Shown: positions 16,837 to 61,320 of the stretch, one piece after another
Layout of the letters: every line of letters starts with the position of its first letter
How positions within the stretch are numbered: position 1 is the first letter of the stretch
NCBI GenBank assembly: GCA_949358305.1
Contig: OX442314.1
Location: 62,001-126,000, forward strand
DNA length: 64,000 nt
Reading direction: 5' to 3'
Source: Strigamia acuminata
Lineage: Eukaryota
Notes under the pieces: model-generated
Database searches by the model: none
What the model was told of the DNA's origin: nothing
The model's input: only the letters and a program-made list of their open reading frames with translations
Translations under genes and position numbers: made by a program

Positions 16837-17050
16837 TGTTATGTTTTGATTGCAAATTAATGAATAAGCTTTATGACGTACAATGTAATTAGTTAGAACA
16901 ATATACCATGGTTACCTATTGTGTGTAAGGTAGCCATGGTAACAGTATTCTGGAATCAGTCATGTGTGAACTATGAATAAATGAGGGAGTTTCGTGTACA
17001 CTCTTTCCCATTCCAATTTGAGAGTCTAAATCGTTGGTGAGAACCCTTCA
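16837..17050 (+). repeat. 5' LTR of element A
   Basis: TGTTATG...CCTTCA, AATAAA near 16976, followed by G-TGG. Inverted copy at 21298-21511. Confidence 0.8.
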
Positions 17051-20666: not shown

Positions 20667-22843
20667 CTCGGCCTCGTGTCGCTTCCGTGCCCCAAATCTC
20701 TGCCGTGCCATGTACGGAGTGTCGACCGACTTGTAATGGTTGTCCACCACCTCCAAAATCACATCCAAACCCATCGTCACCACGTCCTTCGGATGCGCCC
20801 ATCGCTTGATTTTGTCGAACATCGGGATGTCGATGACCGTCAAAAGCAACGGCACCTGTCTGTCGGCTTCTACCTTGTTCAACAAGACGAATTGTTGGTA
20901 AGTTTGCTTCCAACTCGTCCACTCGTGCAACGTGGACCCAGAAAATGGAGGAATGCCACCAAGCATTACCTGCGCCATTACAAGGAGCAGAAAACTACAC
21001 CAACCGATAAACCTCACGTTCGATGTCCCGTGTTCGATCGCGTGTCCTTGGCGCTTCTCCCGTCGCCAAAATCGCTCCAACTCACGTCCAAAACTCGCCG
21101 CCAACGGCTCACACGCCGCCCGCCACAAAAAACAGTCCAGGACTCCGCCCGAACGTCGACTCGCCGACACGGACTTCATCAATTGAAAATTGTCGCAAAA
21201 AACTCACAATTAGGTAAATACGCTCTGTATTAGCAATTTCAAACTGCCCAGTCCACTGTCCAAACGTTTTACTTAAACTGTTTATCGTGGATACCACTGA
21301 AGGGTTCTCACCAACGATTTAGACTCTCAAATTGGAATGGGAAAGAGTGTACACGAAACTCCCTCATTTATTCATAGTTCACACATGACTGATTCCAGAA
21401 TACTGTTACCATGGCTACCTTACACACAATAGGTAACCATGGTATATTGTTCTAACTAATTACATTGTACGTCATAAAGCTTATTCATTAATTTGCAATC
21501 AAAACATAACAAGAACCAGCATTTTTTGGTATAAAATACATTTTTTAAAAAAAGAAAGTCTTTTTATGCGCAAAAACAGCATTTTTTGGCATAAAATACA
21601 GCATTTTTTGGCATAAAAAACAGCATTTTTTGACATAAAATACATTTCTTCGCAAAAACAAACGCTTTTTATTCATTAAAATAGCATTCTGAAGGCTTAA
21701 AATATTTTTTCTCATAAAACAAACGCTCTTTATGCGCAAAAACAGCATTTTTTGGCATAAAATACAGCATTTTTTGGCATAAAATACAGCATTTTTTGGC
21801 ATAAAATACAGCATTTTTTGGCATAAAATACAGCATTTTTTGGCATAAAATACAGCATTTTATGGCATAAATTACAGCATTTTTTGGCATAAAATACAGC
21901 ATTTTTTGGCATAAAATACAGCATTTTTTGGCATAAAATACAGCATTTTATGGCATAAAATACAGCATTTTATGGCATAAAAGACAGCATTATTTGGCAT
22001 AAAATACAGCATTTTTTGGCATAAAATACAGCATTTTTTGGCATAAAATACAGCATTTTTTGGCATAAAAAACAGCATTTTTTGGCATAAAATACAGCAT
22101 TTTTTGGCATAAAATACAGCATTTTTTGGCATAAAATACAGCATTTTTTGGCATAAAATACAGCATTTTTTTGCATAAAATACAGCATTTTTTGGCATAA
22201 AATACAGCATTTTTTGGCATAAAAGACAGCATTATTTGGCATAAAATACAGCATTTTTTGGCATAAAATACAGCATTTTTTGGCATAAAATACAGCATTT
22301 TATGGCATAAAATACAGCATTTTTTGGCATAAAATACAGCATTTTTTTGCATAAAATACAGCATTTTTTGGCATAAAATACAGCATTATTTGGCATAAAA
22401 TACAGCATTTTTTGGCATAAAATACAGCATTTTTTGGCATAAAATACAGCATTTTTTGGCATAAAATACAGCATTTTTTGGCATAAAATACAGCATTTTT
22501 TGGCATAAAATACAGCATTTTTTGGCATAAAATACAGCATTTTTTGGCATAAAATACAGCATTTTTTGGCATAAAATACAGCATTTTTTGGCATAAAATA
22601 CAGCATTTTTTGGCATAAAATACAGCATTTTTTGGCATAAAATACAGCATTTTTTGGCATAAAATACAGCATTTTTTGGCATAAAATACAGCATTTTTTG
22701 GCATAAAATACAGCATTTTTTGGCATAAAATACAGCATTTTTTGGCATAAAATACAGCATTTTTTGGCAAAAAATACAGCATTTTTTGGCATAAAATACA
22801 GCATTTTTTGGCATAAAATACAGCATTTTTTGGCATAAAATAC
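20642..22843 (-). repeat. Inverted duplication of the 5' end of element A plus upstream satellite (array 2, minus orientation)
   Basis: 20642-21740 is the reverse complement of about 16608-17706 (coordinates sum to 38348), including the LTR/satellite junction. It continues as minus-strand 22-bp repeats to 22843. Confidence 0.93.
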
Positions 22844-23366
22844 TGTCACGGGTGTCCCTTCCCAATTCTTAATTTTCAATTTATTTTCTACATTTCTTCC
22901 CGATTTAATTTATGCACGCGACCTTGTCGCGGTATTGTTTAACCTCAAACCTCGTTCTCGAGTTGGTGACAATCGATCAGCTGATCACTCGATCAGCTGA
23001 CCGATTGTTATAAATATTGCGTCGTGTCGATATGCCGACACTTCGCGACCGATACCCATTTGGACCACAAGTCAATTTCTTTTCGTATCTATTTTTTCTG
23101 ACCGTGCTCGCTCTAACTCCCACCTTTTTATTCATCCGGTGACATTCGAAGCCCCCATTTGAGCTACCGAATTATCTGGAATTGGTCGATTATTTTCGAT
23201 ATAAAACATTATTCGATAACAAGAATCTAGTTGACAGAATTATTCAACGGAACCGGAGTTCTCGAATGACCGACACCCACGCTGAAGGTCATTTTCACTA
23301 CGGGGATTCCACGAACCTGCGACTGCGCGTTTAACACACGCATTGTTTTGTAACGTCATTGTTACA
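22844..23366 (+). repeat. 5' LTR of element B
   Basis: Direct repeat of 34871-35393; about 8 substitutions counted by eye. Confidence 0.95.
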
Positions 23367-23370
23367 AACT

Positions 23371-23390
23371 TGGCGAGCTAGACAGGATTC
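23371..23390 (+). promoter_or_regulatory. Primer-binding site, probably tRNA-Arg
   Basis: TGGCGAGCTAGACAGGATTC 4 nt after the LTR; the same 20-mer occurs in element C at 54695. Resembles the complement of a tRNA-Arg(ACG) 3' end as I recall it. Confidence 0.75.
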
Positions 23391-23473
23391 CGCTTTATTG
23401 AGGGAACCAGCGAGATAGTTAGTATTTTCATTTTTCGTTAATTATTACAATTTTCTTTTCACGTTATTTCAAA

Positions 23474-25351
23474 ATGGCGTCGCCGTTAGAAGGCAATGGT
23501 ATTCGATATCCAACCCTAGACCCTTTTGACATAAACGAGTTGGAATTGATGGAGGAAATGCGCGATAACAGAAGACAAAGGACAGCGACAACAGTTGTGA
23601 ACGTTACAACTACACCATTGGTAACATTTTCAACTGATATTTTAACATCAGTCGCGAGTCCAATTAATACAATGGTGCAACCAATTGTTTTAAATACAAC
23701 GACGACACGAATGTCACCAATTCAGTCGACTAGTAGTTCGTCGACGTTGCCAGTCGGTAATGGGGATCAAACAAACCCTCAAACATCGTTTTTTGCCGGT
23801 TTGCGCACCGAATTTCAGCAGTTTTTAAGGGATTGCAGGGAAAGCATTCTAACACAGCCTGCTTCACGTTCTCCCGGATCGGTACACTCCGAGGGATACT
23901 CTGCCTCAAAGGATCAACAGAGGGGTGACAGGCGAGCGTCTTCTTTATTTGCAGAACCTTCCACGGGCACAGCTCGAGCGAGCGCAACGTTTCGTCAGAG
24001 ATCAGCATCAACGACCAACCGACGCACAGGTGCGGCAGGAGCCCAAGGAATTCCAGTGGAGGAGTATAAAAGAACTCCATCACTTAAAGACGCGCGGGAT
24101 GATGCGACCAAAGCCAATGAAGAGGTAATGTCATCAATATTATACTCAAAAATGAAGTTCTCCAGACCGGAACCAGCAACTAGAGAACAGTTGTCATTAC
24201 CATCTATGCCAGACGAAGATGACCCGACTGGCCACCGTAGATGGAAAGTGGAAAAAATTCCACACTTTAATCCGGATAGGACAGACTTCGACACGGTAAA
24301 TTCATTTTTGGCAGAACTTTATTCGCACATGTGGCAAGTGGGAGCTCCCGAACGCGATTATTTGAAGGCTTATGCTGCCACCACGCTAAAAGGTCGCGCG
24401 TTAACTTGGTGGACGAATATGAAGCCTAAACCCACAACTTGGAAAGAATTCGAGGCAATCTTCCGACAAACGTATTCAATGAACACTGCGGCAGCAAATA
24501 CCAAATTGAGCCAACGAAAGCAAAGAGGTGGTGAATCTACAACTGCATTCTTGAGTGAAATAGCTCATTATTTGCAAATTGCGGGTTACAGAGATAAAGC
24601 ACTTAAGTGGGAAAAGGCCCAGAACATGCTGCAAACTCAAGTAGTATTATTGATGCGAAATTGGGGAGTTAATAGTCTAGAAAAAGCGATTCGAGTTGGA
24701 AATGATGTAGACAATAGATTACAACTCGACGCGTTGCGAGCGCTCGAATTCAAACAAAGTGGGACATTGGATATGGCCCTCATGCCCCTTCCTCAGGGGT
24801 ATTCCATGCCCACAATGTTAAAGCCCGTGGAAGAAACCAAGGTGGAGAAGCCCAAATATTCTACTTTCTCTAGATCTGGACAGTTTTCGCGACAGCTTTC
24901 CAAACAAATTGCTGCAGTTTTGCTGGCAATGGAAACACAGCCGGAAGAATCCCGACCGTACGGAGCAGATGAAGACTCGGAGAGTAGTGGATATGATCCC
25001 GAGGTGAGTAAACAGGATGTGGCAGCAGCAGCTGTTAAAACGGAGACTAAAGCAGCAGTCGCAAAAAATGAAATAAAAATCGCGACGACAAGACTCGAGG
25101 TCCCACCAAATGTTCCAAAGGATCATGTTTGTTCGACTCGGGTCACCACTTTTGATCCGACACCATCACCACCGGAATCAGTCAAACGCCCGGATCATGC
25201 AACCTGGCGTCGGACAAAAAAGAACCGTTGGTTTATGGTCGAAAAGGACACCTGGCGTCCATTTTGCCTGGTGTGTCATAAACTCTTCGAGCGGTCGGAA
25301 AACTTCCAAGGCCTGCCAGGAAGCGAGGCAACAAAGCCAGGCCAAAAGTAA
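23474..25351 (+). CDS. gag: Gag of element B
   Basis: 625 aa. Capsid-like LKGRALTWW...TWKEFEAIF and MHR-like RKQRGGESTTAFLSE. Clearly homologous to 54841-56757. Confidence 0.88.
   Translation: MASPLEGNGIRYPTLDPFDINELELMEEMRDNRRQRTATTVVNVTTTPLVTFSTDILTSVASPINTMVQPIVLNTTTTRMSPIQSTSSSSTLPVGNGDQTNPQTSFFAGLRTEFQQFLRDCRESILTQPASRSPGSVHSEGYSASKDQQRGDRRASSLFAEPSTGTARASATFRQRSASTTNRRTGAAGAQGIPVEEYKRTPSLKDARDDATKANEEVMSSILYSKMKFSRPEPATREQLSLPSMPDEDDPTGHRRWKVEKIPHFNPDRTDFDTVNSFLAELYSHMWQVGAPERDYLKAYAATTLKGRALTWWTNMKPKPTTWKEFEAIFRQTYSMNTAAANTKLSQRKQRGGESTTAFLSEIAHYLQIAGYRDKALKWEKAQNMLQTQVVLLMRNWGVNSLEKAIRVGNDVDNRLQLDALRALEFKQSGTLDMALMPLPQGYSMPTMLKPVEETKVEKPKYSTFSRSGQFSRQLSKQIAAVLLAMETQPEESRPYGADEDSESSGYDPEVSKQDVAAAAVKTETKAAVAKNEIKIATTRLEVPPNVPKDHVCSTRVTTFDPTPSPPESVKRPDHATWRRTKKNRWFMVEKDTWRPFCLVCHKLFERSENFQGLPGSEATKPGQK
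25297..25343 (+). promoter_or_regulatory. Putative -1 ribosomal frameshift signal of element B
   Basis: G_GAA_AAC in gag phase, 6-nt spacer, then GGCCTG (25310-25315) able to pair with CAGGCC (25338-25343). The pol frame is -1 and open from 25282. Confidence 0.6.
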
Positions 25352-25566
25352 ACACCAATTGCCTCGACTTACCCGAAAACTGTGCAGAAACACGAGAAAG
25401 TACAGCACAATCATCAGCGCCAACATCGACGGGTGGAGGCGCCACTCATAATTCTTTAATTCAAAACAATTCATCAATTGCTCCCAAGGAGCTTAAACTT
25501 CAAGAGAAATCAACTTCAGTTCTTCCGAAATCACCCATCATCACACTTCAACCGGAAAAATCCAAG

Positions 25567-28500
25567 TTGATCATTCTGCAACCTAAAAATCAGGACAAAG
25601 TGGTAAGTAAGATCATCACTAATGACTTTATTAACACTATTTCCAGGATTAGCGTCGCGACACTGCCTCCATCTGGCTCGATCACCCAAATGGATGCGAA
25701 GTTTGTGATGTTATCACCTGCAGAGCTAGTTGAAACGCGGGAGCCCATAATTGAGATCACCAAACGCGATAGATTTAAAGCTGATGCGCCATGTGTAAGA
25801 ATTGCGTGGTCGGATATCTCTTTCGTCGCGATTTTCGATTCTGGAGCCCAAACCTGCATAATGTCGAACAAATTATTTAACCAACTTAAGGAGAAAATGG
25901 AACTGCAAATGATGCCTTTAAATGAATTTGTCAGGACTGCAACAAATGATACTGTCAAGGTGACAGGTTCTGTACAGCTCGCAGTGAGAGGACCTCTCGC
26001 AATTATTAAATTCGTTTGCCTTGTTGTACCCGAAACATCTCAAGATTTGCTTTTGGGACGCGATTTTTGCCGTGCAGTAGGCCTATGCACGTTGCATGGT
26101 CGACAACAATGGTATTTAGAGGGATCCGAAGAGCGACGTAAGTTTTTGACAATTGACGAAGCATCAAGATCAGAACCAGTGCTATTGCTACCAATTGATA
26201 GAAAATATAGTAATGAACCCAAAATAGACACATTACCTGTCCCTACATCAAAAATCAATTGTGTTCTGCTTGACCATCGTCCACTTACACGAGAAGTGTT
26301 TGAATATCCAAACGACGATGCTCAATTTCGAGTAAAGAAAATCAAACATCGCGATTCTAACGAGTGGTCGAATATTTGGTCACCCAAACGACAGGAAAGA
26401 TCCACCTCATATTCGCGACGGGCGTCTGGTTTTCAGTTACAACCATCATTTAGTCAAATTCAACGTTGGAAGCGACAATCTAAACGTATTGCCAAAGTTA
26501 AACCAATTGTTCAACAGTTGAATCAACAAGCATCGCGACTTTTGAAAGAAGATATTCTTAAGGAAGCGGAAAGGCAGAAGATTGAACATCAAGATAAAGG
26601 TGACAGTATTGGACATATTAATCAATGTAATTTTTTATCTTATCAGCCAAATAAGGATCCAACATGCCTGGATTGGATTTACCATCAACTGTGGAATCAA
26701 CTGACGGTTCCACAAATCCAGCTTCTCATCAAAACACTCCGACCAGTTGCAAATGTTTTTCGAGAAGAGGTCGGACTCTGCAATAATACAGAGTTTGAAG
26801 TCAATTTAAAGCCAGGATTTCGACCTATCCATGTGCCAGTGCGACCCGTAAATCCAGCCAAGAAGTTGGTAATCGATAAATACATTGATGAAAAATTGAA
26901 ACAAGGAATAATTAGGCGATCCAAAAGCGATTGTGCCGTGGCACCAGTTGTGGTACCAAAAAAGACGAGTGACTGGAGAACTGCTATGGATTTTCGCCCA
27001 ATTAACGCTCAAACAATTCCTGATGTGTACCCATTACCAGACATTGACAACATTTTCGCGTATCTCGGTGGAGCCCATTGGTTTTCGATTATTGATGGTC
27101 GCGAAGCTTTTCATCAAATGGGAGTACGAAAAGGCGATGAAAGGTATTTAGCGTTTATTACTCACCGTGGACTTTTTGAGTACGTGAGAATGCCATTTGG
27201 GCCCATTAATGGACCAGCGACGTTACAACGCGCGATGAACAAAACTCTCGCGAAACATTTGTACAAATTTGTGTTTGTGTATTTGGATGACGTGATTGTA
27301 TTCAGCAAAACATACGAGGAAAATGTTGAACATTTAAAAATCATACTTGGTGAACTCTATGACGCTGGATTTACAATGAACGCGGATAAAACAGAGTTGT
27401 GTCGTCGACGTCTAGAAGTTTTGGGACATATCGTTGAAGCAGGTCAAATTACTCCAAACCCAAAAAAGGTAACAGCGATCCAAAGTTACCCTGCACCAAC
27501 AAATCTTCGCGAATTACAAAGATTTAAGGGAATGGTGGGATACTACCAAACTTTTATTCCTAACTTTGCAAAAATTTGCGAAGTATTTCGTCCACTTTTA
27601 AAGAAAGATTGTACATGGGTTTGGACTGACGCGCATCAAAGTGCTTTTGAACATTTGAAACGATTTGTCGCCGAACCAACTTTAAAGCGTAATTTTCCAA
27701 ATTGGAGTAAACCATTTATTCTACAAACTGACGCAAGTTATTCTGGTCTTGGGGCAGCTTTAATGCAAATTGATAATGAAGGAAATCGTTATCCAGTCGC
27801 ATTTGCATCGCGAGCATTAAACAGTGCCGAAAAAAATTATCCAGTCACTGAGATTGAATGTCTTGCAGCTGTTTGGGCGGTGAAAAGATTTAGACCTTAC
27901 CTGGAAATGATGGATTTCTACTTAGAGAGTGATCATATGTCACTCAAATGGCTATTTCAACAACGCGAACCACGAGGTAGACTGGCAAGATGGGTTTTAT
28001 CCCTTAGTGAATATCGTTTCACGTTCATCTACATTTCCGGATGTAAAAATCGAGTCGCAGATGCATTAAGTCGTGCTCCTGTCGACCCTCCAGAAGAAGA
28101 AGATGAGGACGACAGTCCCCTTGTAGATGATGCATGCTATCTTGCATTTTTTGACGATATTTCAGACTGGCCAGAATTAAGAGTCATAGAGGATTTGATA
28201 AATGAACCTCAGTTCGCATATTGTAAGTTAAGAAATAATTTTCATAATAATAGAAGACATTTAATTTCAGCCTTGACACCAACCAAATCAACGAAGAAGA
28301 AAAAACCACCAAAACAAATGGTGTCATTAAAACGACCGGTGGGACGGCCGCGAAAGGATCCTACAGTTCCAACTTTTTCACCGCGATCTCGTCGTGCAAT
28401 TTCAACTAGAACTAGAGCACGAATTCAAGACCCAACGCTGATTCCACCTACACCAGCTCCACCAACGCCATCAATTGGAAAACGTCTAGTGGGTCGACCA

Positions 28501-30716
28501 CGGAAGAGAAGAGCTATGGATCCAGTCGCTGCAGATACGTCACCAAAAACACGACGTTTAATTCCGCCTACAACTCCAGGAGCTGCACCCGTAAGGCGAC
28601 CAGTGGGAAGGCCTAAAAAACAATTAGTAATACCACCACAAATTCCACCAATCGCGATGCCGGTGCCACCACAAATTATTGTGGCTCCACCAACTCCTCC
28701 AACTCCATTAATTCCTTTAACCCCAACTCCGTTAATTCCCCCTCTTCCAGTCAGCATACCTCCATCACTGCCATCAATACCGGAGGAAGATGTACCAAAA
28801 CGTCCACCAGGGCGTCCAAAAAAACGCAAAACTGGAATTCCGGAGCCAATTGTGCCATCACCAAGGTTGAGAAGACTTACGGCACCTGTGTTACCACCTG
28901 AAGAGGTGCCATTTAAGCGTCGAGTTGGTAGACCACGTAAAACGCAGTCTGGTATTCCAATACCAATTGGAAAGCCAAAACCAATTTTGAAACCAACTTC
29001 TTCCCAAATTTATACACCATCACCACCAATGTCTCCAATTTCTTCACCCATTAGTCCCCATCCATTCTCAAAACCTTTTATAGATCCAGAAGAACCTCAA
29101 GCTGGACCATCGGGTTACAGGCCAGAACCATCTTATGCTGCGACGGACAGTTCGGAATCATCCTCAGATGAAAGCTACGGGCCAAATTTGGGCACACAGA
29201 CGCCCGAAACAGTTTATTTTCGTCCTTCTTTGGATCCCAGAAGGACTCCTAGACCACGTCGCAGACCACGACGGAACTACGATGAGGACGAGGGTGACGA
29301 GCCACCAAACGAAGTGGAGAGACAAGCGGAGTTGGATCACGACCCACCAGTAGATCATCCAGCATTTGAAGTTCTACCTAGTGCAGCAGAAATCATCGCA
29401 GCACAGCAGGACGATCAAGATTCGCGAGAACTGGTGGAGTATTTAACTTTACACACACTTCCGGATGAACCGGAACGTGCTAATTTCATTTTACGTAATT
29501 CTAATGATTTTGGCATGTCAAAAGGGTTACTTTGTCGTTTTCCACCTGTGGACATAAATAAGTTTCACAAAGGTCGCCAAATTTATTTACCCACAATTGC
29601 CCTTCGCGAACGATATTTTCGCGCTTTACATTATCCGCCAATTGGGGGACACATGGGAATTGAAAAAACTTTACAAAGATTAAAATCTAGAGTATACTGG
29701 CCGAAAATGCGAGAAGATGTGCAGACCTGGATATTGGTTTGTGACGCATGTCAACGAGCAAAACCTTTAAATCGCTTGCCATATGGTAAACTGCTCATGT
29801 CAAAACCGCAACATTTATTTTCAGCCATTTATATAGACTATTACGGTAAGAAACCTCGCTCGACAGGCGGAAATTGCTATACATTCGTAATGGTAGATGC
29901 AGCAAGCAGATGGTTGGACGTGAGACTTACCGAAAACGCGAACATTCCTACTACTATTAGACAGATTGTTAAAATTTGTAAAAGATGGGGGTTCCCGAAA
30001 GTCATAATAAGTGACAACGCACCAACATTCAGGTCCCCCGAATTTCAAAATCAATGTCAGCAATTAGGAGCGGTGAACAGATATACAGCAGTATATCATC
30101 CGCAGAGTAATTTAGCCGAAAGGTTAAATCAATCGCTAAAAAATTGCATTTTAGCCTACATTGATGACCATTCAAGGTGGGACATCCACATAGGATATTT
30201 TGTTCTCGCGATAAATTCAGCATACCAAGTGTCGTTAAAATTCTCTCCCTTTAAAATGGTCATTGGCCAGGAGGCCAGATTTCCCGGAGATCTAGAGAGC
30301 GATTCGGATGATGGCGAGCCTTTACCGCCATCAGAAGCGGAGAATTTACACGCTGCGAAAATCAGGCACAAAAGATGGTTTGATCGCGGTAGAAGGCCCC
30401 ATGATTTTAAACCAGGAGACTGGGTAACTTTAAAAAATCGCCAACAATCATCTGCTGATCGCCAATTTGCCGCTGGTTTGAGACAGCGAACTGAAGGAAT
30501 TCATATTATACACAAGTTGGTGGGACCAAATACTGTAATATTAATGGATAATGAAAGGAGCAAATCACCCCCATACAATGTGATTGAATTAAGACACTGG
30601 CATTTTGATGATGCTGAAGCACCAACAGTCGAAGAAATTAATTTGATTGATTTACACGTTGACAAATTCATCTTATCAACTTTTGACATTTTTACAGCGC
30701 ACATAGTTACTTCTAA

Positions 30717-30723
<7 letters not shown>
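25567..30723 (+). CDS. pol: Pol of element B (PR-RT-RNase H-AT-hook-like linker-integrase)
   Basis: FDSGA, YLDD, TDAS...ECLA...SDH, HHCC (LHYPPIGGH...CDAC), catalytic IDYY/SDNA/AERLN. The frame is open from 25282 and overlaps gag. Confidence 0.95.
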
Positions 30724-31511: not shown

Positions 31512-33965
31512 ATGTCGAACAGCAAACTCCAAAATGGCGACGAAAAACAAAGGAAGTTAAAATATCCGAAGAATTTGCCCATTCCACCAATTAGAGCGAA
31601 AGGAGAATGGATATACCCTCACTTCCACCCCGACGAGCCTCTCGAACAATCTTTCCTGAACTTCGAAGTTTGTCCTATATGCTCGGGCTGGGGTGTTGAG
31701 ACCACACCACCGGTTAAAGAAATTGTTTGTCGCGCATGTGAAGGAGCAGGAGAACTCAGGAGATGTAAATTTCGGGAGTGGATGCGCATCTACTTTAATT
31801 GGGTGTTCCACTTCAAATATGCAGACGGGGTGAGGATATACGAATGGATTTTGCCGCCAACACGAATAATTCAGGGGAGCATCACCGCGCTTCTAAGATT
31901 TCGCTTTACACACTATTGGTATTGGGCCAGGGTGCAGCAACTGGCCGAAGAGCGTGGTGTAGCGCCGCGGCGATGGATTTATCCGATGGGAAACGCGATC
32001 CGATGCCAACATGAGGCAGTGCCGCGTATGAGCAACGAGGACATCGCGAAATTATCTAATTTTGCCAGAGAGCAATATCTTACCGACCTACAATACTCAG
32101 GCATGATTAAAACTCTCCCTGCATTTCTAGGAACAACTGCCAACTCCGAGCAGGCGAGATTATGGATCGAAGATTTAAATCGCGAAATCGACCTCCTCAC
32201 GGCCGAAGCCAGAGCCCAGCCGATGCCTGAACCTCGTTTATATATGCCCAAAGGTACTGAAAGTTTCGCGGTCCGATACAAGGAGAGTGGTGGCCAGGTA
32301 GTCCAAGCTATCATGGCAGGCGGTACTACGTTGCCGAGAGACCGCTCTCGTGACCATCAATTCACACCAGGAATGGTGTATGCACCGAAGCCTTTACAAA
32401 TTGCGCAAGCGACCACACCAGTCGAGGAAGAGGAAGAAGTGACAAAACACGATGAGTCGACGTCATTGCCGTCCGAATCTAATAAGGAAATCAGCCCTGA
32501 CAGAATGAGACCTGGAATGCTGTCAAAAATGGTAAATTTTCCGCGACCTATCAAATCAGTCCCAATTTTGACTCCAATACCGGACCCCACACAACGTCGC
32601 CTGGACGAGTTCATGGAAAGAAACAGAGACATTAGATCACTACCACCCAGTATTGAAAAGAAAAATGAAGAATCGGCACCGGCTAAATGCGAATTGAAGC
32701 CAACTGCGACAGAACTTCATATGAAGAGGGTTCCGACTCCATTCAAGAGTCAGATTCCAATCAAATCAACATCAATCCCAACCAAGACGACTACTACAAC
32801 AGTCAACACCACAGCCACGACGAGCGTGATGGCAACAACCAATACCGTAGCGGCACAGGCTTCTACGACACGCAGCTCGCCTCAAGATGGTGTCCTGTCA
32901 ACAACCAAAACCACAAAGGTAATCACTCCTCCTCCTCATTATACTCAAACCGATCATTACGGAGTATCTGACTGCCCCACCTTCACTCTTCATTATATTC
33001 GAAACATTTTGAAACCCTTCGAGCTTCAGGTTCTGAGGAGAAGCGCTACCATCAGCAACTCCCGTATGGAGTTGGAGCCGAAGGGTTGGAGGGAACTTTT
33101 TACCGTGATGTCGAGTCGAGATTTTGACATCAATCAATACGATGTCTACCCAGTAAAAAATGCGACATTCAAAGAGCTGAAGAACATCGCCGCCAGTGTT
33201 GAAGCTCGTATGGACCAAGAGATCCACATGGATGAGGATCGTCTATTCGCTGTACTGGTATGGGAAACGCATCGGGTAATGGGCATGTATGTTAAAAAAT
33301 TCGCGATTGAACGGGAAAAGAAGAAATATGCGGTGCAGGAAAGTTTGAGGAGGGAAGCTGAAAAAGTGGCGGCAGAGAAAATCGAATTCGAAAGAATAGA
33401 AAAAGCCCGAAAGGAAAAAGAGGATAAAGAGAAAGAGGAAATTCAGAAAAGAAGAGAAGAGGAGAAAAGGGTTCGAGAGATTCAAGTCCAAGAGATGTCA
33501 AAACTTGCCGTCTCTTCGCGATTTATGGCGCCCACTCCTGAGGAAAAATCCTTGAAAGACGTACTTTCTCTCCCAGTTTCCAAGGAAAAACCGGAGATAA
33601 CCATTTTAATGTCCAACGCAATAATTCCGACGATGAACATTATCTGCGATTTTACTTTCAATCCAACAAAGTGTGTGAAACTAATGATCCCTTATCACAC
33701 ACAGAGTGCCCTTTTCCGATCATTGGCATTGTCGGATTTAAATTTAACCATTCCCGAGACCGAAGAAGTTATTGAACTAATGGACACATATTTTCGCGAT
33801 GCATTTATCGACCTATGCTTGCAGGAAATTAATCGCCGTGGAGCCGCAAATGTGGCCAGAGCCCGTTTAATTATCATAGATGTGGCGTTTGATTTGATTC
33901 GACATTACTCGGACCCGGAACAACGCCTTATCGTTAAAGAATTCCACAAGGACTTGACGTCGTAA
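31512..33965 (+). CDS. ORF3 of element B, 817 aa, unknown function, not env-like
   Basis: Long ATG-initiated open frame between pol and the 3' LTR. Motifs CPICSGWG and CRACEGAG, a Thr/Pro-rich middle and an E/K/R-rich coiled-coil-like stretch. No evident signal peptide or membrane anchor. Confidence 0.85.
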   Translation: MSNSKLQNGDEKQRKLKYPKNLPIPPIRAKGEWIYPHFHPDEPLEQSFLNFEVCPICSGWGVETTPPVKEIVCRACEGAGELRRCKFREWMRIYFNWVFHFKYADGVRIYEWILPPTRIIQGSITALLRFRFTHYWYWARVQQLAEERGVAPRRWIYPMGNAIRCQHEAVPRMSNEDIAKLSNFAREQYLTDLQYSGMIKTLPAFLGTTANSEQARLWIEDLNREIDLLTAEARAQPMPEPRLYMPKGTESFAVRYKESGGQVVQAIMAGGTTLPRDRSRDHQFTPGMVYAPKPLQIAQATTPVEEEEEVTKHDESTSLPSESNKEISPDRMRPGMLSKMVNFPRPIKSVPILTPIPDPTQRRLDEFMERNRDIRSLPPSIEKKNEESAPAKCELKPTATELHMKRVPTPFKSQIPIKSTSIPTKTTTTTVNTTATTSVMATTNTVAAQASTTRSSPQDGVLSTTKTTKVITPPPHYTQTDHYGVSDCPTFTLHYIRNILKPFELQVLRRSATISNSRMELEPKGWRELFTVMSSRDFDINQYDVYPVKNATFKELKNIAASVEARMDQEIHMDEDRLFAVLVWETHRVMGMYVKKFAIEREKKKYAVQESLRREAEKVAAEKIEFERIEKARKEKEDKEKEEIQKRREEEKRVREIQVQEMSKLAVSSRFMAPTPEEKSLKDVLSLPVSKEKPEITILMSNAIIPTMNIICDFTFNPTKCVKLMIPYHTQSALFRSLALSDLNLTIPETEEVIELMDTYFRDAFIDLCLQEINRRGAANVARARLIIIDVAFDLIRHYSDPEQRLIVKEFHKDLTS

Positions 33966-34870: not shown

Positions 34871-35393
34871 TGTCACGGATGTCCCTTCCCAATTCTTAAT
34901 TTTCAATTTATTTTCTACATTTCTTCCCGATTTAATTTATGCACGCAACCTTGTCGCGGTATTGTTTAACCTCAAACCCCGTTCTCGAGTTGGTGACAAT
35001 CGATCAGCTGATCACTCGATCAGCTGACCGATTGTTATAAATATCGCGTCGTGTCGATATGCCGACACTTCGCGACCGATACCCATTTGGACCACAAGTC
35101 AATTTATTTTCGTATCTATTTTTTCTGACCGTGCTCGCTCTAACTCCCACCTTTTTATTCATCCGGTGACATTCGAAGCCCCCATTTGAGCTACCGAATT
35201 ATCTGGAATTGGTCGATTATTTTCGATATAAAACATTATTCGATAACAAGAATCTAGTTGACAGAATTATTCAACGGAACCGGAGTTCTCGAATGACCGA
35301 CACCCACGCTGAAGGTCATTTTTACTACGGGGATTCCACGAACCTGCGACTGCGCGTTTAACACACGTTTTGTTTTGTAACGTCATTGTTACA
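34871..35393 (+). repeat. 3' LTR of element B
   Basis: Preceded by PPT-like GGGTGGCGGAGGA; direct repeat of 22844-23366. Confidence 0.95.
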
Positions 35394-38300
35394 GTATTTT
35401 ATGCCAAAAAATGCTGTATTTTATGCCAAAAAATGCTGTATTTTATGCCAAAAAATGCTGTATTTTATGCCAAAAAATGCTGTATTTTATGCCAAAAAAT
35501 GCTGTATTTTATGCCAAAAAATGCTGTATTTTATGCCAAAAAATGCTGTATTTTATGCCAAAAAATGCTGTATTTTATGCCAAAAAATGCTGTATTTTAT
35601 GCCAAAAAATGCTGTATTTTATGCCAAAAAATGCTGTATTTTATGCCAAAAAATGCTGTATTTTATGCCAAAAAATGCTGTATTTTATGCCAAAAAATGC
35701 TGTATTTTATGCCAAAAAATGCTGTTTTTGCGCATAAAAAGAATTTGTTTTTTGAAGAAATGTATTTTATACCAAAAAATGCTGTTTCGGTGCATTAAAA
35801 GCGTTTGTTTTTATGAGAAAAAATATTTTCTGCCTTCAAAATGCTGTTTTGGCGGATAAAAAGCGTTTGTTTTAATGAGAGAAAATATTTTATGCCTCCA
35901 GAATGCTATTTTGATGAATAAAAAGAGTTTGTTTTTGCGAATAAATGTATTTTATGTCAAAAAATGCTGTTTTTGCGCATAAAAAGACTTTGTTTTTTGA
36001 AGAAATGTATTTTATACTAAAAAATGCTGTTTCGGTGCATTTAAAGCGTTTGTTTTTATGAGAAAAAATATTTTAAGCTCTCAGTGCCCTCAGAGCCCTC
36101 AGAGCCCTCAGAGCCCTCAGAGCCCTCAGAGCCCTCAGAGCCCTCAGAGCCCTCAGAGCCCTCAGAGCCCTCAGAGCCCTCAGAGCTTTCAGAGCCCTCA
36201 GAGCCCTCAGAGCTCTCAGAGCCCTCACACCTCTCAGAGCCTTCAGAGCCCTCAGAGCCTTCAGAGCTCTTAGAGCCCTCACACTTCTCAGAGCCCTCAG
36301 AGCCCTCAGAGCCTTCAGAGCTCTCAGTGCCCTTAGAGCCCTCAGAGCCCTCAGAGCCCTCAGAGCCCTCAGAGCCCTCAGAGCCCTCAGTCCGCTCAGA
36401 GCTTTCAGAGCCCTCAAAGCCCTCAGAGCCCTCAGACTCAGAGCCCTCAGAGCCCTCAGAGCCCTCAGAGCTCTCAGAGCCCTCACACCTCTCAGAGCCT
36501 TCAGAGCCCTCAGAGCCTTCAGAGCTCTTAGAGCCCTCACACTTCTCAGAGCCCTCAGAGCCCTCAGAGCCTTCAGAGCCCTCAGAGCCCTCAGAGCCCT
36601 CAGATCCCTCAGAGCCCTCAGAGTCCTCAGAGCTCTCAGAGCCCTCAGACTCAGAGCCCTCAGAGCCCTCAGAGCCCTCAGAGCCCTCAGAGCCCTCAGA
36701 GCCCTCAGACTCAGAGTCCTCAGAGCCCTCAGTCCGCTCAGAGCTTTCAGAGCCCTCAAAGCCCTCAGAGCCCTCAGACTCAGAGCCCTCAGAGCCCTCA
36801 GAGCTTTCAGACTCAGAGCCCTTAGACTCAGAGCCCTCAGACTCAGAGCCCTCAGAAGTCTCAGAGCCCTCAGAAGTCTCAGAGCCCTCAGAAGTCTCAG
36901 AGCCCTCAGAGCCCTCAGAGCCCTCAGAGCCTCAAAAAACGCTGTATTTTATGCCAAAAAATGCTGTATTTTATGCCAAAAAATGCTGTATTTTATGTCA
37001 AAAAATGCTGTATTTTATGCCAAAAAATGCTGTATTTTATGCCAAAAAATGCTGTATTTTATGGGAAAAAATGCTGTATTTTATGCAAAAAAATGCTGTA
37101 TTTTATGCAAAAAAATGCTATATTTTATGCCAAAAAATGCTGTATTTTATGCCAAAAAATGCTGTATTTTATGCCAAAAATGCTGTATTTTATGCAAAAA
37201 AATGCTGTATTTTATGCAAAAAATGCTGTATTTTATGCCAAAAAATACTGTTTTTGTGCATAATAAGACTTTGTTTTTTGAAGAAATGTATTTTATACCA
37301 AAAAATGCTGTTTCGGTGCATTAAAAGCGTTTGTTTTTATGAGAAAAAATATTTTAAGCTCTCAGTGCCCTCAGAGCCCTCAGAGCCCTCAGAGCCCTCA
37401 GAGCTCTCAGAGCCCTCAGAGCCCTCAGAGCCCTCAGAGCCCTCAGAGCCCTCAGAGCCCTCAGAGCCCTCAGAGCCCTCAGAGCCCTCAGAGCTTTCAG
37501 AGCCCTCAGAGCCCTCAGAGCTCTCAGAGCCCTCACACCTCTCAGAGCTTTCAGAGCCCTCAGAGCCCTCAGAGCCTTCAGAGCTCTCAGTGCCCTCAGA
37601 GCCCTCAGAGCCCTCAGAGCCCTCAGAGTCCTCAGAGCCCTCAGAGTCCTCAGAGCCCTCAGAGCCCTCAGACTCAGAGCCCTCAGAGCCCTCAGAGCCC
37701 TCAGAGCCCTCAGAGCCCTCAGAGCCCTCAGAGCCCTCAGAGCCCTCAGAGCTTTCAGAGCCCTCAGAGCCCTCAGAGCTTTCAGAGCCCTCACACCTCT
37801 CAGAGCTTTCACAGCCCTCAGAGCCCTCAGAGCCTTCAGAGCTCTCAGTGCCCTCAGAGCCCTCAGAGCCCTCAGAGCCCTCAGAGCCCTCAGAGCCCTC
37901 AGAGTCCTCAGAGCCCTCAGAGCTCTCAGACTCAGAGCCCTCAGAGCCCTCAGAGCCCTCAGAGCCCTCAGAGCCCTCAGAGCCCTCAGAGCCCTCAGAG
38001 CCCTCAGAGCCCTCAGAGCCCTCAGAGCCCTCAGAGCCCTCAGAGCTTTCAGAGCTTTCAGAGCCCTCAGAGCCCTCAGAGCTCTCAGAGCCCTCACACC
38101 TCTCAGAGCTTTCAGAGCCCTCAGAGCCCTCAGAGCCTTCAGAGCTCTCAGTGCCCTCAGAGCCCTCAGAGCCCTCAGAGCCCTCAGAGCCCTCAGAGCC
38201 CTCAGAGTCCTCAGAGCCCTCAGAGCTCTCAGACTCAGAGCCCTCAGAGCTCTCAGAGCCTTCAGAGCTCTCAGTGCCCTCAGAGCCCTCAGAGCCCTCA

Positions 38301-52707: not shown

Positions 52708-52950
52708 CACTGGAAAAAAAATCAGATTTACTCACTTGTAAAGAATTATAAATATATAGGCAGATGGATTTTACAAGTTTGTAAATTAGATTTACAAAGA
52801 ATTGAAAATAAGTCTTTTCCAAACACATTTACAATCCGGACCATTTCCGTGACTTTTTTTACAATAACTTTACAAACATTTTCAATTGTGTAATTATGAA
52901 ATTTCATAATGTATTTCCAATGTATTTCCAATGTATTTCCAATGTATTTC
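52708..52950 (+). mobile_element. Left part of a second copy of the CACTG MITE
   Basis: Highly similar to 39060 to about 39300; cut off at 52950 within the 11-bp repeats. Confidence 0.88.
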
Positions 52951-59425: not shown

Positions 59426-61320
59426 ATTGTGGAGTCTGGACACATTAAACCAAATCCGAATAAGGTGACGGCAATTCAATATTTTCCGGCGCCTACCAAT
59501 ATCAAAGAATTACAAAGATTCAAAGGAATGATTGGCTATTATCAGTCATTTTTCCCAAATTATTCAAAAACATGCGAGGTGTTTCGCCCTTTGCTCAAAA
59601 AAGATTCCGAGTGGAAATGGACGATTCAACACCAAGAAGCATTTGATTCACTCAAGAGAGGATTGGCAGAACCAACTCTACACCGGAAGTTCCCAGATTG
59701 GACCAAGCCATACATATTACAGACAGACGCCAGCTATTCGGGTTTGGGCGCTGCACTTATGCAACTCAATGATCAAGGTGAGCGAACACCAATCGCCTTT
59801 GCATCACGTGCATTAAATTCTGCTGAGAAGAATTACAGCGTCACCGAGATTGAATGCTTGGCGGCGGTTTGGGCGGTCAAGAGATTTCGGGTGTATCTTG
59901 AGATGATGAATTTTTATTTGGAAAGCGATCATTTGTCGTTAAAGTGGCTTTTCCAGCAGCGAGAACCAAAAGGACGCCTGGCACGATGGGTTTTGTCCCT
60001 CAGTGAGTATGGATTCACATTTCTTTACTGTTCGGGAGCACAGAATCGTGTTGCGGATGCTTTGAGCCGTGCGCCTGTGGAACCATCGGAACCATTGGAT
60101 GCGGACGACTCGCCTCTCGTTGATGAAACATGCTACATCGCCTATTTTGACGACCCAAATGATTGGCCAAAATTACCAATAATCAACATTATTGGAGTTG
60201 GATTAGCTGCGGCACAACAACGAAATGACGCAGCTGTGATGACGAGAGCGCAGAGACGACAACAGCAAGTTAAACCAAAATTGGGCAGGCCAAAGGGTTC
60301 TAAAAGTAAGAAGAGACCGCCACCAAATTATCAGGTATTAACTCGAGCCAGAGCACGTCAGCAGGCACAGGTTTCGACGCCTCATGGAGCTGACGCACCA
60401 CTATCGCCTTTGATATCGCCCTTGCCATCGCCAAATTTGCCGACTACATCGTGTCCAACCCCTAATATGTTGAGCCCACCTGCAGGACCATCCGGAGCTG
60501 CACGACCGAATTTTGACGGATATGGAGGTCCGGATTCGGATTCGTCGGACGATTCAACAACATATCGACCGGCATGGATGGGACGTGCAGGATTTATTCT
60601 ACAACAAGTGCGTCAAGATCGATCACAATTTCAAAGAAATGCATCGAGACGACCAATTGCTGATGAGCAACAGGACGAAGAAGAAGATGAGGCCGAACAA
60701 GCACATGATGCGCCGCAGGATCACCAACCTTTTCGTCTGATACCAACAATTAACGAAATAATTTGCCGACAACACGAAGACACGTGGAGCGCCGAATTGA
60801 TCGAATATCTTGATCAAGGACATTTACCCAATGACCAAGTACAAGCAGCACGTATCAAATATCGTGCCGTAGATTTTGCTATTTATAAGGGAATGTTGTG
60901 TCGCTATCCACCGATCGACATAAATAAAATTCGCCGTAGAAGACAAATCTATTTGCCCTTAGTGTTACGTGAACAATATTTCAAGGCTCTGCATTACCCG
61001 CCGAGCTGCGGACATTTAGGAGTTGAAAAAACACTTCATCGACTCCGGGCCCGAGTTTATTGGCCAAAAATGAAAGAGGACGTTTTGCTTTGGATTCAGA
61101 AATGTGAACCGTGTCAACGAGCTAAGTCGTTGAATCGCCTCCCATATGGACCAATGATTATGGCCAAACCACGACATTTGTTTCACACAATTTACATCGA
61201 CTATTACGGTAAAAAGCCCCGATCGATTGGAGGACATTGTTACGCATTAGTAATTGTAGATGCCGCCAGTCGATGGTTGGATGTGAGATTGACTGAAGCA
61301 TCTGACTGGAAGACAACAAT

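What the first reader, a model, noticed from the sequence alone, without database searches (positions are those of the whole stretch)
28330..28941. Five AT-hook-like motifs between RNase H and integrase, in an element sitting in AT-rich satellite
Seen: KRPVGRPRK, KRLVGRPRKR, RRPVGRPKK, KRPPGRPKKRK and KRRVGRPRK spaced by Pro-rich linkers, followed by an acidic stretch and then the integrase HHCC. Element C has one such motif (KPKLGRPKGSK, about 60272-60304) at the same place. Known: HMGA-type AT-hooks (core R-G-R-P) bind A/T-tract minor grooves; the best-known Gypsy targeting module is a C-terminal chromodomain. Inference: an HMGA-like N-terminal integrase extension that tethers integration to A-tract satellite. 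Caveat: the residue before GRP is V, P or L, not the canonical R.
Basis: partly seen in the sequence, partly recalled or inferred. Interest (0 to 1): 0.82.

Follow-up and report, generated by a model that had tools for sequence, protein, structure and literature searches.

The report
AT-hook array ahead of retrotransposon integrase
An intact jumping gene (a Gypsy-type retrotransposon) carries five AT-hook DNA-binding motifs in a long, probably floppy insert just ahead of its integrase; relatives share the add-on, and it likely helps the element grip AT-rich DNA such as the satellite it sits in, though no binding has been tested.

Summary
Window 28330-28941 encodes five [KR]R.[VP]GRP[KR]K motifs. 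They lie in a 528-residue, 19% proline insert between RNase H and the integrase zinc finger of an intact, young Ty3/Gypsy element. Its LTRs are 22844-23366 and 34871-35393, 98.5% identical. The median RNase H-integrase spacer in 123 other pairs is 103 residues.

Chance does not explain the motifs: 0 of 100,000 shuffles reach three. Their G-R-P codons differ synonymously, while the spacers between them are barely alignable. Element C keeps hook 1. Two Strigamia maritima relatives keep hooks 4 and 5, there as canonical RGRP. The V/P/L before GRP also occurs in annotated hooks of Drosophila D1, the satellite-binding protein.

A separate arthropod Gypsy clade carries canonical hooks at the integrase C-terminus (94 of 120 relatives). 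Hooks near integrase were therefore gained at least twice.

The satellite-tethering inference is untested and gets no support inside the window. Hookless Gypsy fragments lie in the same satellite, C's 5' flank is not satellite, and B has only one detectable junction in the reads.

I found no paper describing retroelement-encoded AT-hooks. Verdict: a real, conserved, undescribed variant of integrase-linked targeting modules. Its function is inferred.

The parts
22844..23366 (+). 5' LTR of element B (523 bp, TG...CA)
   Evidence: It aligns with 34871-35393 at 98.47% over 523 bp.
23371..23383 (+). Primer-binding-site-like sequence 4 nt after the 5' LTR, shared with element C (54695-54707)
   Evidence: There are two exact matches in the window, each just inside a 5' LTR. 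The PBS role is inferred from position.
23474..25351 (+). gag ORF (from the first Met of the 23423-25351 frame)
   Evidence: Pfam Retrotrans_gag, E 5.9e-08.
25282..30723 (+). pol ORF, 1813 codons uninterrupted, -1 frame relative to gag, order PR-RT-RH-insert-IN
   Evidence: Pfam domains: Asp_protease_2 aa 178-262, RVT_1 558-718, RT_RNaseH 808-911, Integrase_H2C2 1440-1495, rve 1527-1607.
28015..29598 (+). 528-residue insert between RNase H and the integrase zinc finger (19% Pro, 10% Arg)
   Evidence: The median RH-to-H2C2 spacer in 123 other pairs is 103 aa; B has 529. AlphaFold predicts no secondary structure for pol aa 996-1343, but the model is poor overall (mean pLDDT 44).
28330..28356 (+). 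AT-hook 1, KRPVGRPRK; positional equivalent of the single hook of element C
   Evidence: A 21-aa window scores 15.9 bits on Pfam AT_hook, cut-off 17.4.
28480..28506 (+). AT-hook 2, KRLVGRPRK
28594..28620 (+). AT-hook 3, RRPVGRPKK
28798..28824 (+). AT-hook 4, KRPPGRPKK(RK); it also reads as a classical NLS-like PKKRK
   Evidence: It aligns with KRGRGRPRK of P0238 and P0239.
28915..28941 (+). AT-hook 5, KRRVGRPRK followed by SGIPIPIG
   Evidence: It aligns with KRKRGRPPKNPKRLSGIPIPVG of P0238 and RRRRGRPPKNPRRLSGIPTPLG of P0239. Pfam AT_hook scores 15.5 bits.
29146..29175 (+). Ser/Asp/Glu patch DSSESSSDES after the hook array; similar patches occur in C, P0238 and P0239
   Evidence: The comparison with the acidic tails of D1 and HMGA1 rests.
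29239..29301 (+). Basic RRTPRPRRRPRR followed by acidic DEDEGDE
29599..30102 (+). Integrase zinc-binding (H2C2) and catalytic core domains
   Evidence: Pfam PF17921 E 2.6e-19; PF00665 E 1.3e-10.
31512..33965 (+). ORF3 of element B (817 aa from the first Met), unknown function
   Evidence: It has no Pfam family and no usable Atlas hit. It has two CxxC motifs, no strongly hydrophobic 19-mer (best Kyte-Doolittle mean 1.44), and a Lys/Glu-rich stretch.
34871..35393 (+). 3' LTR of element B
21572..22843 (-). 22-bp satellite array abutting the 5' LTR, in inverted orientation
35394..35729 (+). 22-bp satellite array abutting the 3' LTR
   Evidence: Each unit has two A/T tracts (AAAAAAT, TATTTTAT) starting 11 bp apart.
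60272..60298 (+). Single AT-hook KPKLGRPKG of the related, rearranged element C

Best explanation
Positions 28330-28941 encode five GRP-core AT-hook motifs inside a 528-residue proline-rich insert between RNase H and the integrase zinc finger of an intact Ty3/Gypsy element; this module is predicted to bind the minor groove of A/T tracts and would thereby tether the integration complex to AT-rich DNA.

Shown directly: the motifs, their position in an uninterrupted pol frame, their non-random occurrence, their conservation in related elements, and the hooks-then-acidic-patch layout shared with D1 and HMGA1.

Inferred:
1. The insert stays attached to integrase as an N-terminal extension after protease processing.
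2. Each hook inserts its G-R-P core into a narrow A/T minor groove, as HMGA hooks do.
3. Five hooks on 29-59-residue flexible spacers bind several tracts at once. This would favour DNA with closely phased tracts, such as the 22-bp satellite with two tracts per unit, 11 bp apart.
4. This raises the local concentration of the intasome on such DNA and biases where the element lands.

The module works like a built-in version of what lentiviruses borrow from the host, namely the AT-hook-bearing tether LEDGF/p75. It also parallels what chromoviruses achieve with a C-terminal chromodomain.
For: - Motif reality: there are 5 hooks in 204 aa. 0 of 100,000 shuffles reach 3, and there are only 6 hits in six frames of 64 kb.
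- Selection on the core: G is encoded by GGA/GGT/GGA/GGG/GGT, R by CGG/CGA/AGG/CGT/AGA and P by CCG/CCA/CCT/CCA/CCA across the five hooks. Of the 10 spacer pairs, only 3 score above most shuffles (5, 12 and 20 of 300 shuffles reach them).
- Lineage conservation: C keeps hook 1 although B-C synonymous sites are saturated (pS 0.81-0.83).
- Relatives: a full-library HMMER search gave only 3 of the 150 listed hits whose best stretch reaches into the insert, all from Strigamia maritima. Two of them carry two hooks each, aligned with B hooks 4 and 5 and canonical RGRP.
- Hook variants: RPVGRP, LGRP and PGRP cores occur in annotated hooks of D1 and ASH1L.
- Layout: D1 (10 hooks) and HMGA1 (3 hooks) bind AT-rich satellites and have acidic C-tails (passages). 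B has hooks followed by DSSESSSDES and DEDEGDE.
- Recurrence near integrase: 13 of 120 other Gypsy pols and 94 of 120 relatives of one of them end in P[IL]R[KR]RGRPRK after the integrase SH3 domain.
- That clade is separate from B and C (100* and 98*). An AU test rejects one clade for all 15 hook-bearing rows (p 5e-05).
- Target fit: 65-67% of the bases in the flanking 22-mer arrays lie in A/T runs of 6 or more, against 14% inside B, and the tracts are phased at 11 bp.
- The two B junctions fall at the same position of the 22-bp unit, at the edge of TATTTTAT.
Against: - No binding or integration data exist.
- Hookless Gypsy fragments A (17145-20666), E (43717-45154) and D (48948-52721, minus strand) lie in the same satellite block. 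Residence in satellite therefore does not need hooks.
- Element C, with one hook, has a non-satellite 5' flank.
- B's satellite-LTR junction contig has the same depth as B-unique sequence (71 vs 78 in X1, 282 vs 234 in X2). Only one insertion of this element is visible, and no preference can be measured.
- B has no target-site duplication, so its present flanks may not be its original target.
- All six hooks of B and C lack the first Arg of the RGR core, which the review calls important.
- Pfam AT_hook: 2 of 6 motif windows score 15.5-15.9 bits, below the 17.4 cut-off, and 4 of 6 give nothing.
- Protease cleavage sites are unknown, so the insert could end up on RT-RNase H or as a free peptide.
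- Hook 4 overlaps an NLS-like PKKRK.
Confidence: 0.45

Rival explanations
1. The hooks may act as a built-in HMGA-like architectural cofactor. They would bind and bend the element's own AT-rich cDNA ends to help assemble the intasome, rather than choosing the target.
For: The host AT-hook protein HMGA1 was identified as a factor that restores integration activity of salt-stripped HIV-1 preintegration complexes (Farnet and Bushman 1997, as told in passages of review PMC3420096). The first 75 nt of B's LTR hold three A/T runs of 8-11 bp, and C's LTR start is richer still.
Against: The U5 end of B's LTR has only two 5-bp A/T runs in its last 120 nt. This does not explain why five hooks are needed. 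No data exist either way.
Confidence: 0.2
2. The basic motifs may serve mainly as nuclear localisation signals or as a sequence-independent chromatin tether, getting integrase or the preintegration complex into the nucleus without any AT preference.
For: KRPPGRPKKRK contains a classical K-K/R-x-K/R pattern. The insert also has KKKKPPK and RRTPRPRRRPRR. From recall, not from a call: LTR-retrotransposon integrases such as Ty1 and Ty3 carry NLSs, and an HMGA2 hook doubles as an NLS.
Against: An NLS needs only basic residues. Yet the invariant part in all 6 hooks of B and C and all 4 hooks of the Strigamia relatives is G-R-P, which is the DNA-groove-binding core. The separate arthropod clade conserves RGRPRK, with R before G in 109 of 110 hooks.
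Confidence: 0.2
3. The hooks may bind RNA, as described for extended AT-hooks, and would help genome packaging or reverse transcription as part of the RT-RNase H product.
For: The review describes extended AT-hooks: a GRP core with basic patches about 12 residues away. Their preference for RNA is my recall. Several B hooks have basic clusters 10-20 residues downstream (SPRSRR, SPKTRRL, SPRLRRL). The insert directly follows RNase H.
Against: The basic residues of B's hooks are immediately adjacent to GRP, the canonical arrangement. In the other hook-bearing Gypsy clade the hook is at the integrase C-terminus, far from RT.
Confidence: 0.06
4. The insert may be a tolerated low-complexity expansion with no function of its own. 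The hooks would then be leftovers of internal duplication.
For: The insert is the fastest-evolving part of pol: B-C amino-acid identity is 34% over 175 alignable codons, against 76% in the RNase H end. Its length varies widely: B 528 aa, C about 316 aa, and P0237 is short and hookless. Hook number varies from 0 to 5.
Against: The hook cores are kept while the spacers and synonymous sites are randomised. Hooks are retained at aligned positions in 4 of the 5 lineage members seen. The frame is open for 528 codons in a young element. Hooks were gained independently near integrase in another Gypsy clade.
Confidence: 0.07

Closest known systems
Drosophila D1 and mammalian HMGA1 (multi-AT-hook satellite-binding proteins)
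   Same: Both have several GRP-core hooks on one disordered polypeptide, followed by an acidic region. D1 lists hooks with V, L or A before GRP (RPVGRPSA, RGLGRPKK, RKAGRPKK), like B and C. D1 and HMGA1 bind AT-rich satellites.
   Different: There is no detectable sequence homology beyond the motif. No PDB hit was found. No non-retroelement protein matches the insert among the 150 best of 2341 hits. Here the module is a segment of a retrotransposon polyprotein, not a free chromatin protein. No binding has been shown.
LEDGF/p75, the host tether of lentiviral integrase
   Same: It links an integrase to chromatin and contains AT-hook(-like) motifs and an NLS (review passages). It supplies the logic of 'integrase plus AT-hook tether'.
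   Different: LEDGF is a host protein that binds integrase through a separate integrase-binding domain and reads chromatin mainly through PWWP. In element B the hooks are encoded in cis, in the same polyprotein.
Chromoviruses (Ty3/Gypsy with a chromodomain at the integrase C-terminus)
   Same: A chromatin-targeting module is fused to a Gypsy integrase, and the elements accumulate in heterochromatin (titles and abstracts in the listing; the targeting experiments are recalled, not read here).
   Different: B has no chromodomain. Its module is N-terminal to the zinc finger, and it is a DNA minor-groove motif rather than a histone-mark reader.
Arthropod Ty3/Gypsy clade with a C-terminal RGRP hook
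   Same: It has a GRP-core AT-hook attached to a Gypsy integrase. The hook is present in 94 of 120 relatives, 16 of them with more than one. Named hosts include Tribolium, Zophobas, Plutella, Helicoverpa, Cydia, Anthophora, Argiope and Araneus.
   Different: There the hook follows the integrase SH3 domain at the extreme C-terminus, is canonical (R before G in 109 of 110) and is usually single. It is a separate clade from B and C. I found no paper describing it.
HMGA1 as a cofactor of retroviral preintegration complexes
   Same: An AT-hook protein takes part in the integration machinery.
   Different: It is host-encoded, and its proposed role is on viral DNA ends rather than on the target.
Fungal chromoviruses with AT-hooks, noted earlier in this scan
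   Same: Earlier AI notes describe two or three hooks in the RNase H-integrase linker, or hooks after the chromodomain, in fungal Gypsy elements.
   Different: They come from other genomes and another kingdom, and most are decayed copies. These are unchecked notes that I did not test.

Membership tests
AT-hook motif (Reeves/HMGA definition; Pfam PF02178) | GRP tripeptide core | tested here: met
   5 of 5 hooks in B and 1 of 1 in C.
AT-hook motif (Reeves/HMGA definition; Pfam PF02178) | Basic residues (K/R) flanking the core on both sides, often with nearby Pro (definition as worded in review PMC11354804) | tested here: met
   All six hooks have at least 2 K/R within 4 residues on each side. 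Pro is at position -2 or -1 in hooks 1, 3 and 4.
AT-hook motif (Reeves/HMGA definition; Pfam PF02178) | Arg immediately before G (central R-G-R) | tested here: not met
   B has V, V, V, P, V and C has L. The aligned hooks of the Strigamia relatives have R. In review Table S1, by my manual count, 35 of 42 GRP hooks have R, and the 4 with A, V, L or P are in D1 (3) and ASH1L (1).
AT-hook motif (Reeves/HMGA definition; Pfam PF02178) | Pfam AT_hook gathering score (17.4 bits) | tested here: inconclusive
   The whole array gives no hit. Among 21-aa windows, hook 1 scores 15.9 bits, hook 5 scores 15.5 bits and 4 of 6 give none. In the controls, the canonical RGRP hooks of P0238, P0239 and P0116 score 14.1, 13.7 and 10.4 bits, and P0097 and P0106 give none. 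The cut-off therefore does not discriminate.
AT-hook motif (Reeves/HMGA definition; Pfam PF02178) | Binds the minor groove of A/T-rich DNA | not testable with these tools
   This needs EMSA or footprinting with distamycin competition.
HMGA/D1-type multi-AT-hook proteins | Three or more hooks on one non-globular polypeptide, plus an acidic tail | tested here: met
   Five hooks are followed by DSSESSSDES and DEDEGDE. AlphaFold predicts no secondary structure for pol aa 996-1343, in a poor model.
HMGA/D1-type multi-AT-hook proteins | Sequence homology to HMGA or D1 beyond the motif | tested here: not met
   No PDB hit at E up to 10. Only retroelement relatives match the insert. The Atlas's nearest cluster carries AT_hook in 46% of its members, at a weak score of 0.78. 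The module is an analogue, not a member.
Ty3/Gypsy (Metaviridae) LTR retrotransposon | LTRs, gag, and pol in the order PR-RT-RH-IN | tested here: met
Chromovirus | Chromodomain at the integrase C-terminus | tested here: not met
   No chromo family appears among the 11 Pfam families at E up to 10.
Arthropod C-terminal-hook Gypsy clade | RGRP hook after the integrase SH3 domain, and placement in that clade | tested here: not met
   B has no hook downstream of integrase. B and C sit in another clade. The AU test rejects joining them.

The most novel reading that the evidence does not exclude
AT-hooks are an unrecognised, repeatedly evolved class of integrase-targeting module in Ty3/Gypsy elements, on a par with chromodomains. 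In this lineage a D1-like five-hook array lets the element read phased A/T tracts directly and home to AT-rich satellite as a safe haven. It would be a cis-encoded, DNA-sequence-based route to 'centrophilic' or heterochromatin-directed integration.
Probability: 0.3. Interest if true: 0.85.

Novelty: new variant of a known kind. Interest (0 to 1): 0.62.

Why it matters
How retrotransposons come to populate satellite and centromeric repeats is an open question. [quoted passage not shown] The known Gypsy targeting modules read chromatin marks or host proteins.

A hook array encoded in pol would be a direct DNA-shape reader. It is simple to test in vitro with a peptide and two oligonucleotides. 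The test can also be done comparatively, because hook number varies from 0 to 5 within the lineage, hookless sister families exist, and a second large arthropod clade gained hooks independently at the other end of integrase. It would also offer a compact natural tether for retargeting integrases.

If the hooks instead serve intasome assembly or nuclear import, the finding still shows an element internalising a function that retroviruses borrow from HMGA1 or LEDGF.

Tried and rejected
- Whole genome: none is held for this window, so family-wide insertion mapping was impossible.
- Word-indexed protein searches: 120 listed hits covered only 14-35% of the RH-insert-IN query, never the insert. The 'shorter' search with the insert alone gave nothing at E up to 0.001 among 7986 candidates.
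- PDB sequence search with the hook array: 0 hits at E up to 10.
- ESM Atlas: the only hit shown scored 0.78, a cluster carrying AT_hook in 46% of members. This is a weak lead only.
- Sequencing runs: no RNA holder is listed.
- Reads: both runs are contigs. They confirm the sequence and show many diverged relatives of pol, but the tables were capped and I could not read variant letters inside the hook array.
- LTR edge: laying the edge showed one junction contig, with only 27 nt on the satellite side, and no alternative flanks among the rows shown; 38 loose-end rows were not shown.
- dN/dS between B and C: synonymous sites are saturated (pS 0.81-0.83), so no ratio could be computed.
- AlphaFold on a 5-row alignment: mean pLDDT 44. 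It is usable only as 'nothing folded is predicted in the insert'.
- A long linker in P0005 (478 aa) turned out to be two partial pol copies in one gene model. P0006 (1384 aa) looks like the same kind of artefact, though I did not inspect it.
- Capture of a host AT-hook gene was considered. No non-retroelement protein matches the insert, so there is no support, but short motifs would escape detection.
- Earlier-scan look-ups by place and by sequence returned nothing.
- Literature: five full-text searches found no paper on AT-hooks encoded by LTR retrotransposons. Subscription journals are not covered.

Full report
**What is there**

The window is a block of composite satellite made of a 9-mer AGCCCTCAG, a 22-mer CAAAAAATGCTGTATTTTATGC and a 60-62-mer. 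Ty3/Gypsy elements interrupt it.

Element B is the only complete one:
- Its LTRs lie at 22844-23366 and 34871-35393. They are 523 bp, run TG...CA and are 98.47% identical.
- A PBS-like sequence lies at 23371.
- gag runs to 25351 (Retrotrans_gag).
- pol is an uninterrupted 1813-codon frame, 25282-30723, in the -1 frame relative to gag.
- An 817-codon ORF3 follows pol (31512-33965).

Pfam places the pol domains as protease aa 178-262, RT 558-718, RNase H to 911, the integrase zinc finger from 1440, and the integrase core 1527-1607.

The RNase H-to-zinc-finger spacer is therefore 528 residues. In 123 other RNase H-integrase pairs taken from 120 database Gypsy polyproteins the median is 103. Of the two larger or similar values, P0005 proved on inspection to be a chimeric gene model and P0006 looks like one. 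In the hookless Gypsy fragments of this same window the spacer is 106 residues (A) and 83 residues (D).

**The observation**

They follow the pattern [KR]-R-x-[VP]-G-R-P-[KR]-K. The spacers between them are 41, 29, 59 and 30 residues long and rich in proline.

Several checks exclude chance and assembly error:
- A six-frame scan of all 64 kb finds the pattern only at these five places and once in element C.
- 0 of 100,000 composition-preserving shuffles of the insert reach three such motifs.
- Contigs of two coded public runs reproduce 27975-28944 (X1) and 28069-28944 (X2) without a single difference.

After the hooks come a Ser/Asp/Glu patch (DSSESSSDES), a basic RRTPRPRRRPRR, an acidic DEDEGDE, and then the conserved integrase N-terminal helices.

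**Are the hooks kept by selection?**

Three lines of evidence say yes.

1. Across the five repeats, Gly, Arg and Pro of the core are written with different codons. With the cores removed, only 3 of the 10 spacer pairs score above most shuffles. The repeats are therefore old, and only the core has been held.
2. Element C is a rearranged relative, 71-73% identical to B in the conserved RNase H-integrase columns. It keeps one hook at the position of B's hook 1, followed by the shared TRxRAR. This holds although synonymous sites between B and C are saturated (pS 0.81-0.83).
3. An index-free HMMER search of 1.84 billion representatives used the RNase H end, the insert and the integrase start as query. 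It returned 2341 hits at E up to 0.001. Among the 150 listed, only three have a best stretch that reaches into the insert.

All three of those hits are UniRef entries of the centipede Strigamia maritima. P0238 and P0239 each carry two hooks. PKRGRGRPRK aligns with B's hook 4. K/RR.RGRPPKNP.RLSGIP.P.G aligns with B's hook 5 and its SGIPIPIG tail. P0237 has a short insert without hooks.

So 4 of the 5 lineage members seen carry hooks, and hook number ranges from 0 to 5.

**Are they AT-hooks?**

A 2024 review defines most AT-hooks as a GRP core flanked by K/R and often by proline (passages). All six motifs of B and C meet that definition.

- The aligned hooks in the Strigamia relatives are canonical RGRP.
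- In the review's supplementary table of UniProt-annotated hooks I count 42 with a GRP core. Of these, 35 have R before G, 3 have K and 4 have a non-basic residue. Three of those four are in Drosophila D1 (RPVGRPSA, RGLGRPKK, RKAGRPKK) and one is in ASH1L (KRRPGRPRK).

D1 is the textbook binder of AT-rich satellite, with 10 hooks and an acidic tail. The RPVGRP core of B's hooks 1 and 3 is literally a D1 hook core.

The Pfam AT_hook model is not decisive. Two of six 21-residue windows score 15.9 and 15.5 bits against a cut-off of 17.4, and the other four give nothing. Canonical RGRP hooks used as controls score only 14.1, 13.7 and 10.4 bits or are not reported at all.

Beyond the motif there is no homology to HMGA, D1 or any solved structure. 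The module is an analogue, not a captured, recognisable host gene.

**An unexpected wider pattern**

While measuring linker lengths I found that 13 of the 120 other Gypsy polyproteins end in P-[IL]-R-[KR]-R-G-R-P-R-K, within about 45 residues of the C-terminus. The motif comes right after the Tf2-type SH3 domain of integrase.

- A search from one of them showed the hook in the last 90 residues of 94 of 120 relatives. Sixteen carry more than one hook, and R precedes G in 109 of 110 hooks.
- Most of the 26 without a strict match have degenerate versions or different tails.
- Named hosts are beetles, moths, a bee and spiders.

On a 123-row FastTree these 13 fall in one clade (100*, 14 rows). B and C sit elsewhere, sister to five hookless proteins (98*). 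On a 44-row IQ-TREE subset, chosen by me after seeing the first tree, the AU test rejects uniting all 15 hook-bearing rows (log-likelihood difference 89.5, p 5e-05).

Hooks were therefore attached next to Gypsy integrases at least twice, at opposite ends of the enzyme. Earlier AI notes of this scan report hooks in the same linker, or after the chromodomain, in fungal chromoviruses. I did not test those notes.

Five full-text literature searches found no paper that describes AT-hooks encoded by LTR retrotransposons. Subscription journals are outside the library.

**Does it tether integration to the satellite?**

This is inference, and the window gives mixed signals.

In favour:
- The 22-mer has two A/T runs (AAAAAAT and TATTTTAT) starting 11 bp apart, about one helical turn.
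- 65-67% of the bases in the flanking arrays lie in A/T runs of 6 or more, against 14% inside B and 0% in the 9-mer.
- Five hooks on flexible spacers are the kind of multivalent reader that D1 and HMGA1 use on satellites.
- B's two junctions fall at the mirror-image position of the 22-bp unit, at the edge of TATTTTAT. The flanks are reverse complements of each other for about 330 nt, with one mismatch.

That last pattern is what two insertions at the same site in opposite orientation, followed by exchange between them, would leave. The chance of such a phase match is about 1 in 22 (my estimate), so it is a hint only.

Against:
- The hookless fragments A, E and D lie in the same satellite block.
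- A is embedded in a 1.9-kb inverted duplication, and E is a 99.4% copy of part of A. Segmental rearrangement, not targeting, moves sequences around here.
- C's 5' LTR (from 53650) abuts non-satellite DNA.
- B has no target-site duplication.
- The satellite-LTR junction contig has the same depth as B-unique sequence (71 vs 78 in X1, 282 vs 234 in X2). Only one insertion of B is visible, and no distribution can be built.
- Where the protease cuts is unknown, so attachment of the insert to integrase is assumed.

**Mechanism and rivals**

My best reading (0.45) is that the insert is an N-terminal extension of integrase. Its hooks would bind A/T minor grooves and concentrate the intasome on AT-tract-rich DNA.

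The rivals are:
- A built-in HMGA1-like cofactor acting on the element's own AT-rich LTR ends (0.20). HMGA1's role in HIV preintegration complexes is, and the A/T runs in the first 75 nt of B's LTR are.
- Nuclear import or non-specific chromatin tethering (0.20). Hook 4 overlaps PKKRK. However, the invariant residues are G-R-P, not merely basic ones.
- RNA binding (0.06).
- Neutral filler (0.07). Core conservation and independent gains argue against it.

**Verdict**

The array is conserved in a centipede-associated Gypsy lineage, and it belongs to a recurrent, apparently undescribed habit of Gypsy elements of placing AT-hooks beside integrase. The functional claim remains a well-motivated hypothesis that is cheap to test. 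I rate it a new variant of a known kind (integrase-linked targeting modules), with interest 0.62.

Noticed in passing
window 22778-22843 and 35394-35459 (extends about 330 nt each side): The two flanks of element B are exact reverse complements of each other (first mismatch at nt 73; 299 of the first 300 match), and there is no target-site duplication. Both LTR ends abut the same position of the 22-bp unit, in opposite orientation. Two same-site insertions followed by exchange between them would give this. Otherwise it is a 1-in-22 coincidence.
   Followed up: partly
window 15780-17710 vs 20638-22570: A near-perfect (about 96-100%) inverted duplication of about 1.9 kb, made of satellite plus Gypsy sequence, brackets the central part of Gypsy fragment A. 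It explains the flip of satellite orientation left of element B.
   Followed up: partly
window 18841-20278 and 43717-45154: A 1438-bp piece of Gypsy fragment A is repeated at 99.4% identity 25 kb away, inside another stretch of the satellite. Satellite orientation flips there as well.
   Followed up: no
window 31512-33965: ORF3 of element B (817 aa) has no Pfam family and no usable Atlas hit. It holds CPICSGWG...CRACEGAG, which resembles DnaJ-type CxxCxGxG zinc motifs (recalled). It also has a Thr-rich stretch and a Lys/Glu-rich stretch, and no clear membrane segment. It does not look like an envelope protein.
   Followed up: partly
window 53650-64000 (element C): Element C is rearranged. About 614 bp foreign to B interrupt RT (58808-59421). 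Homology to B's integrase stops at about 61297. A second copy of gag-end/PR/RT follows (56365-58831 equals 61534-64000 at 99.96%), carrying the same RT interruption.
   Followed up: partly
window about 53053-53138: An internal run of (TTAGG)n grading into (TTTAGG)n lies between elements D and C. From recall, TTAGG is the arthropod-type telomere repeat.
   Followed up: no
proteins P0003, P0060, P0073, P0076, P0091, P0094, P0097, P0105, P0106, P0116, P0117, P0120, P0122 and P0123-P0236: A large arthropod Ty3/Gypsy clade ends its integrase with a canonical P[IL]R[KR]RGRPRK AT-hook. The hook is in the last 90 residues of 94 of 120 relatives, and 16 have more than one. I found no description of it in five literature searches.
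   Followed up: partly
window 22988-23031 (inside the LTR of B): A short LTR segment holding the palindromic GATCAGCTGATC-type repeats has a summed contig depth of about 7,000-10,000 (X1) and 21,000-28,000 (X2). The neighbouring LTR sequence has 71 and 282. The segment is therefore shared with a far more abundant repeat.
   Followed up: no
window 28185-28308: One contig in each run joins 28184 to 28309, skipping 124 nt just upstream of hook 1. Its depth is higher than that of the B-exact contig (534 vs 87 in X1; 1375 vs 230 in X2). A commoner relative therefore differs in this part of the insert.
   Followed up: no
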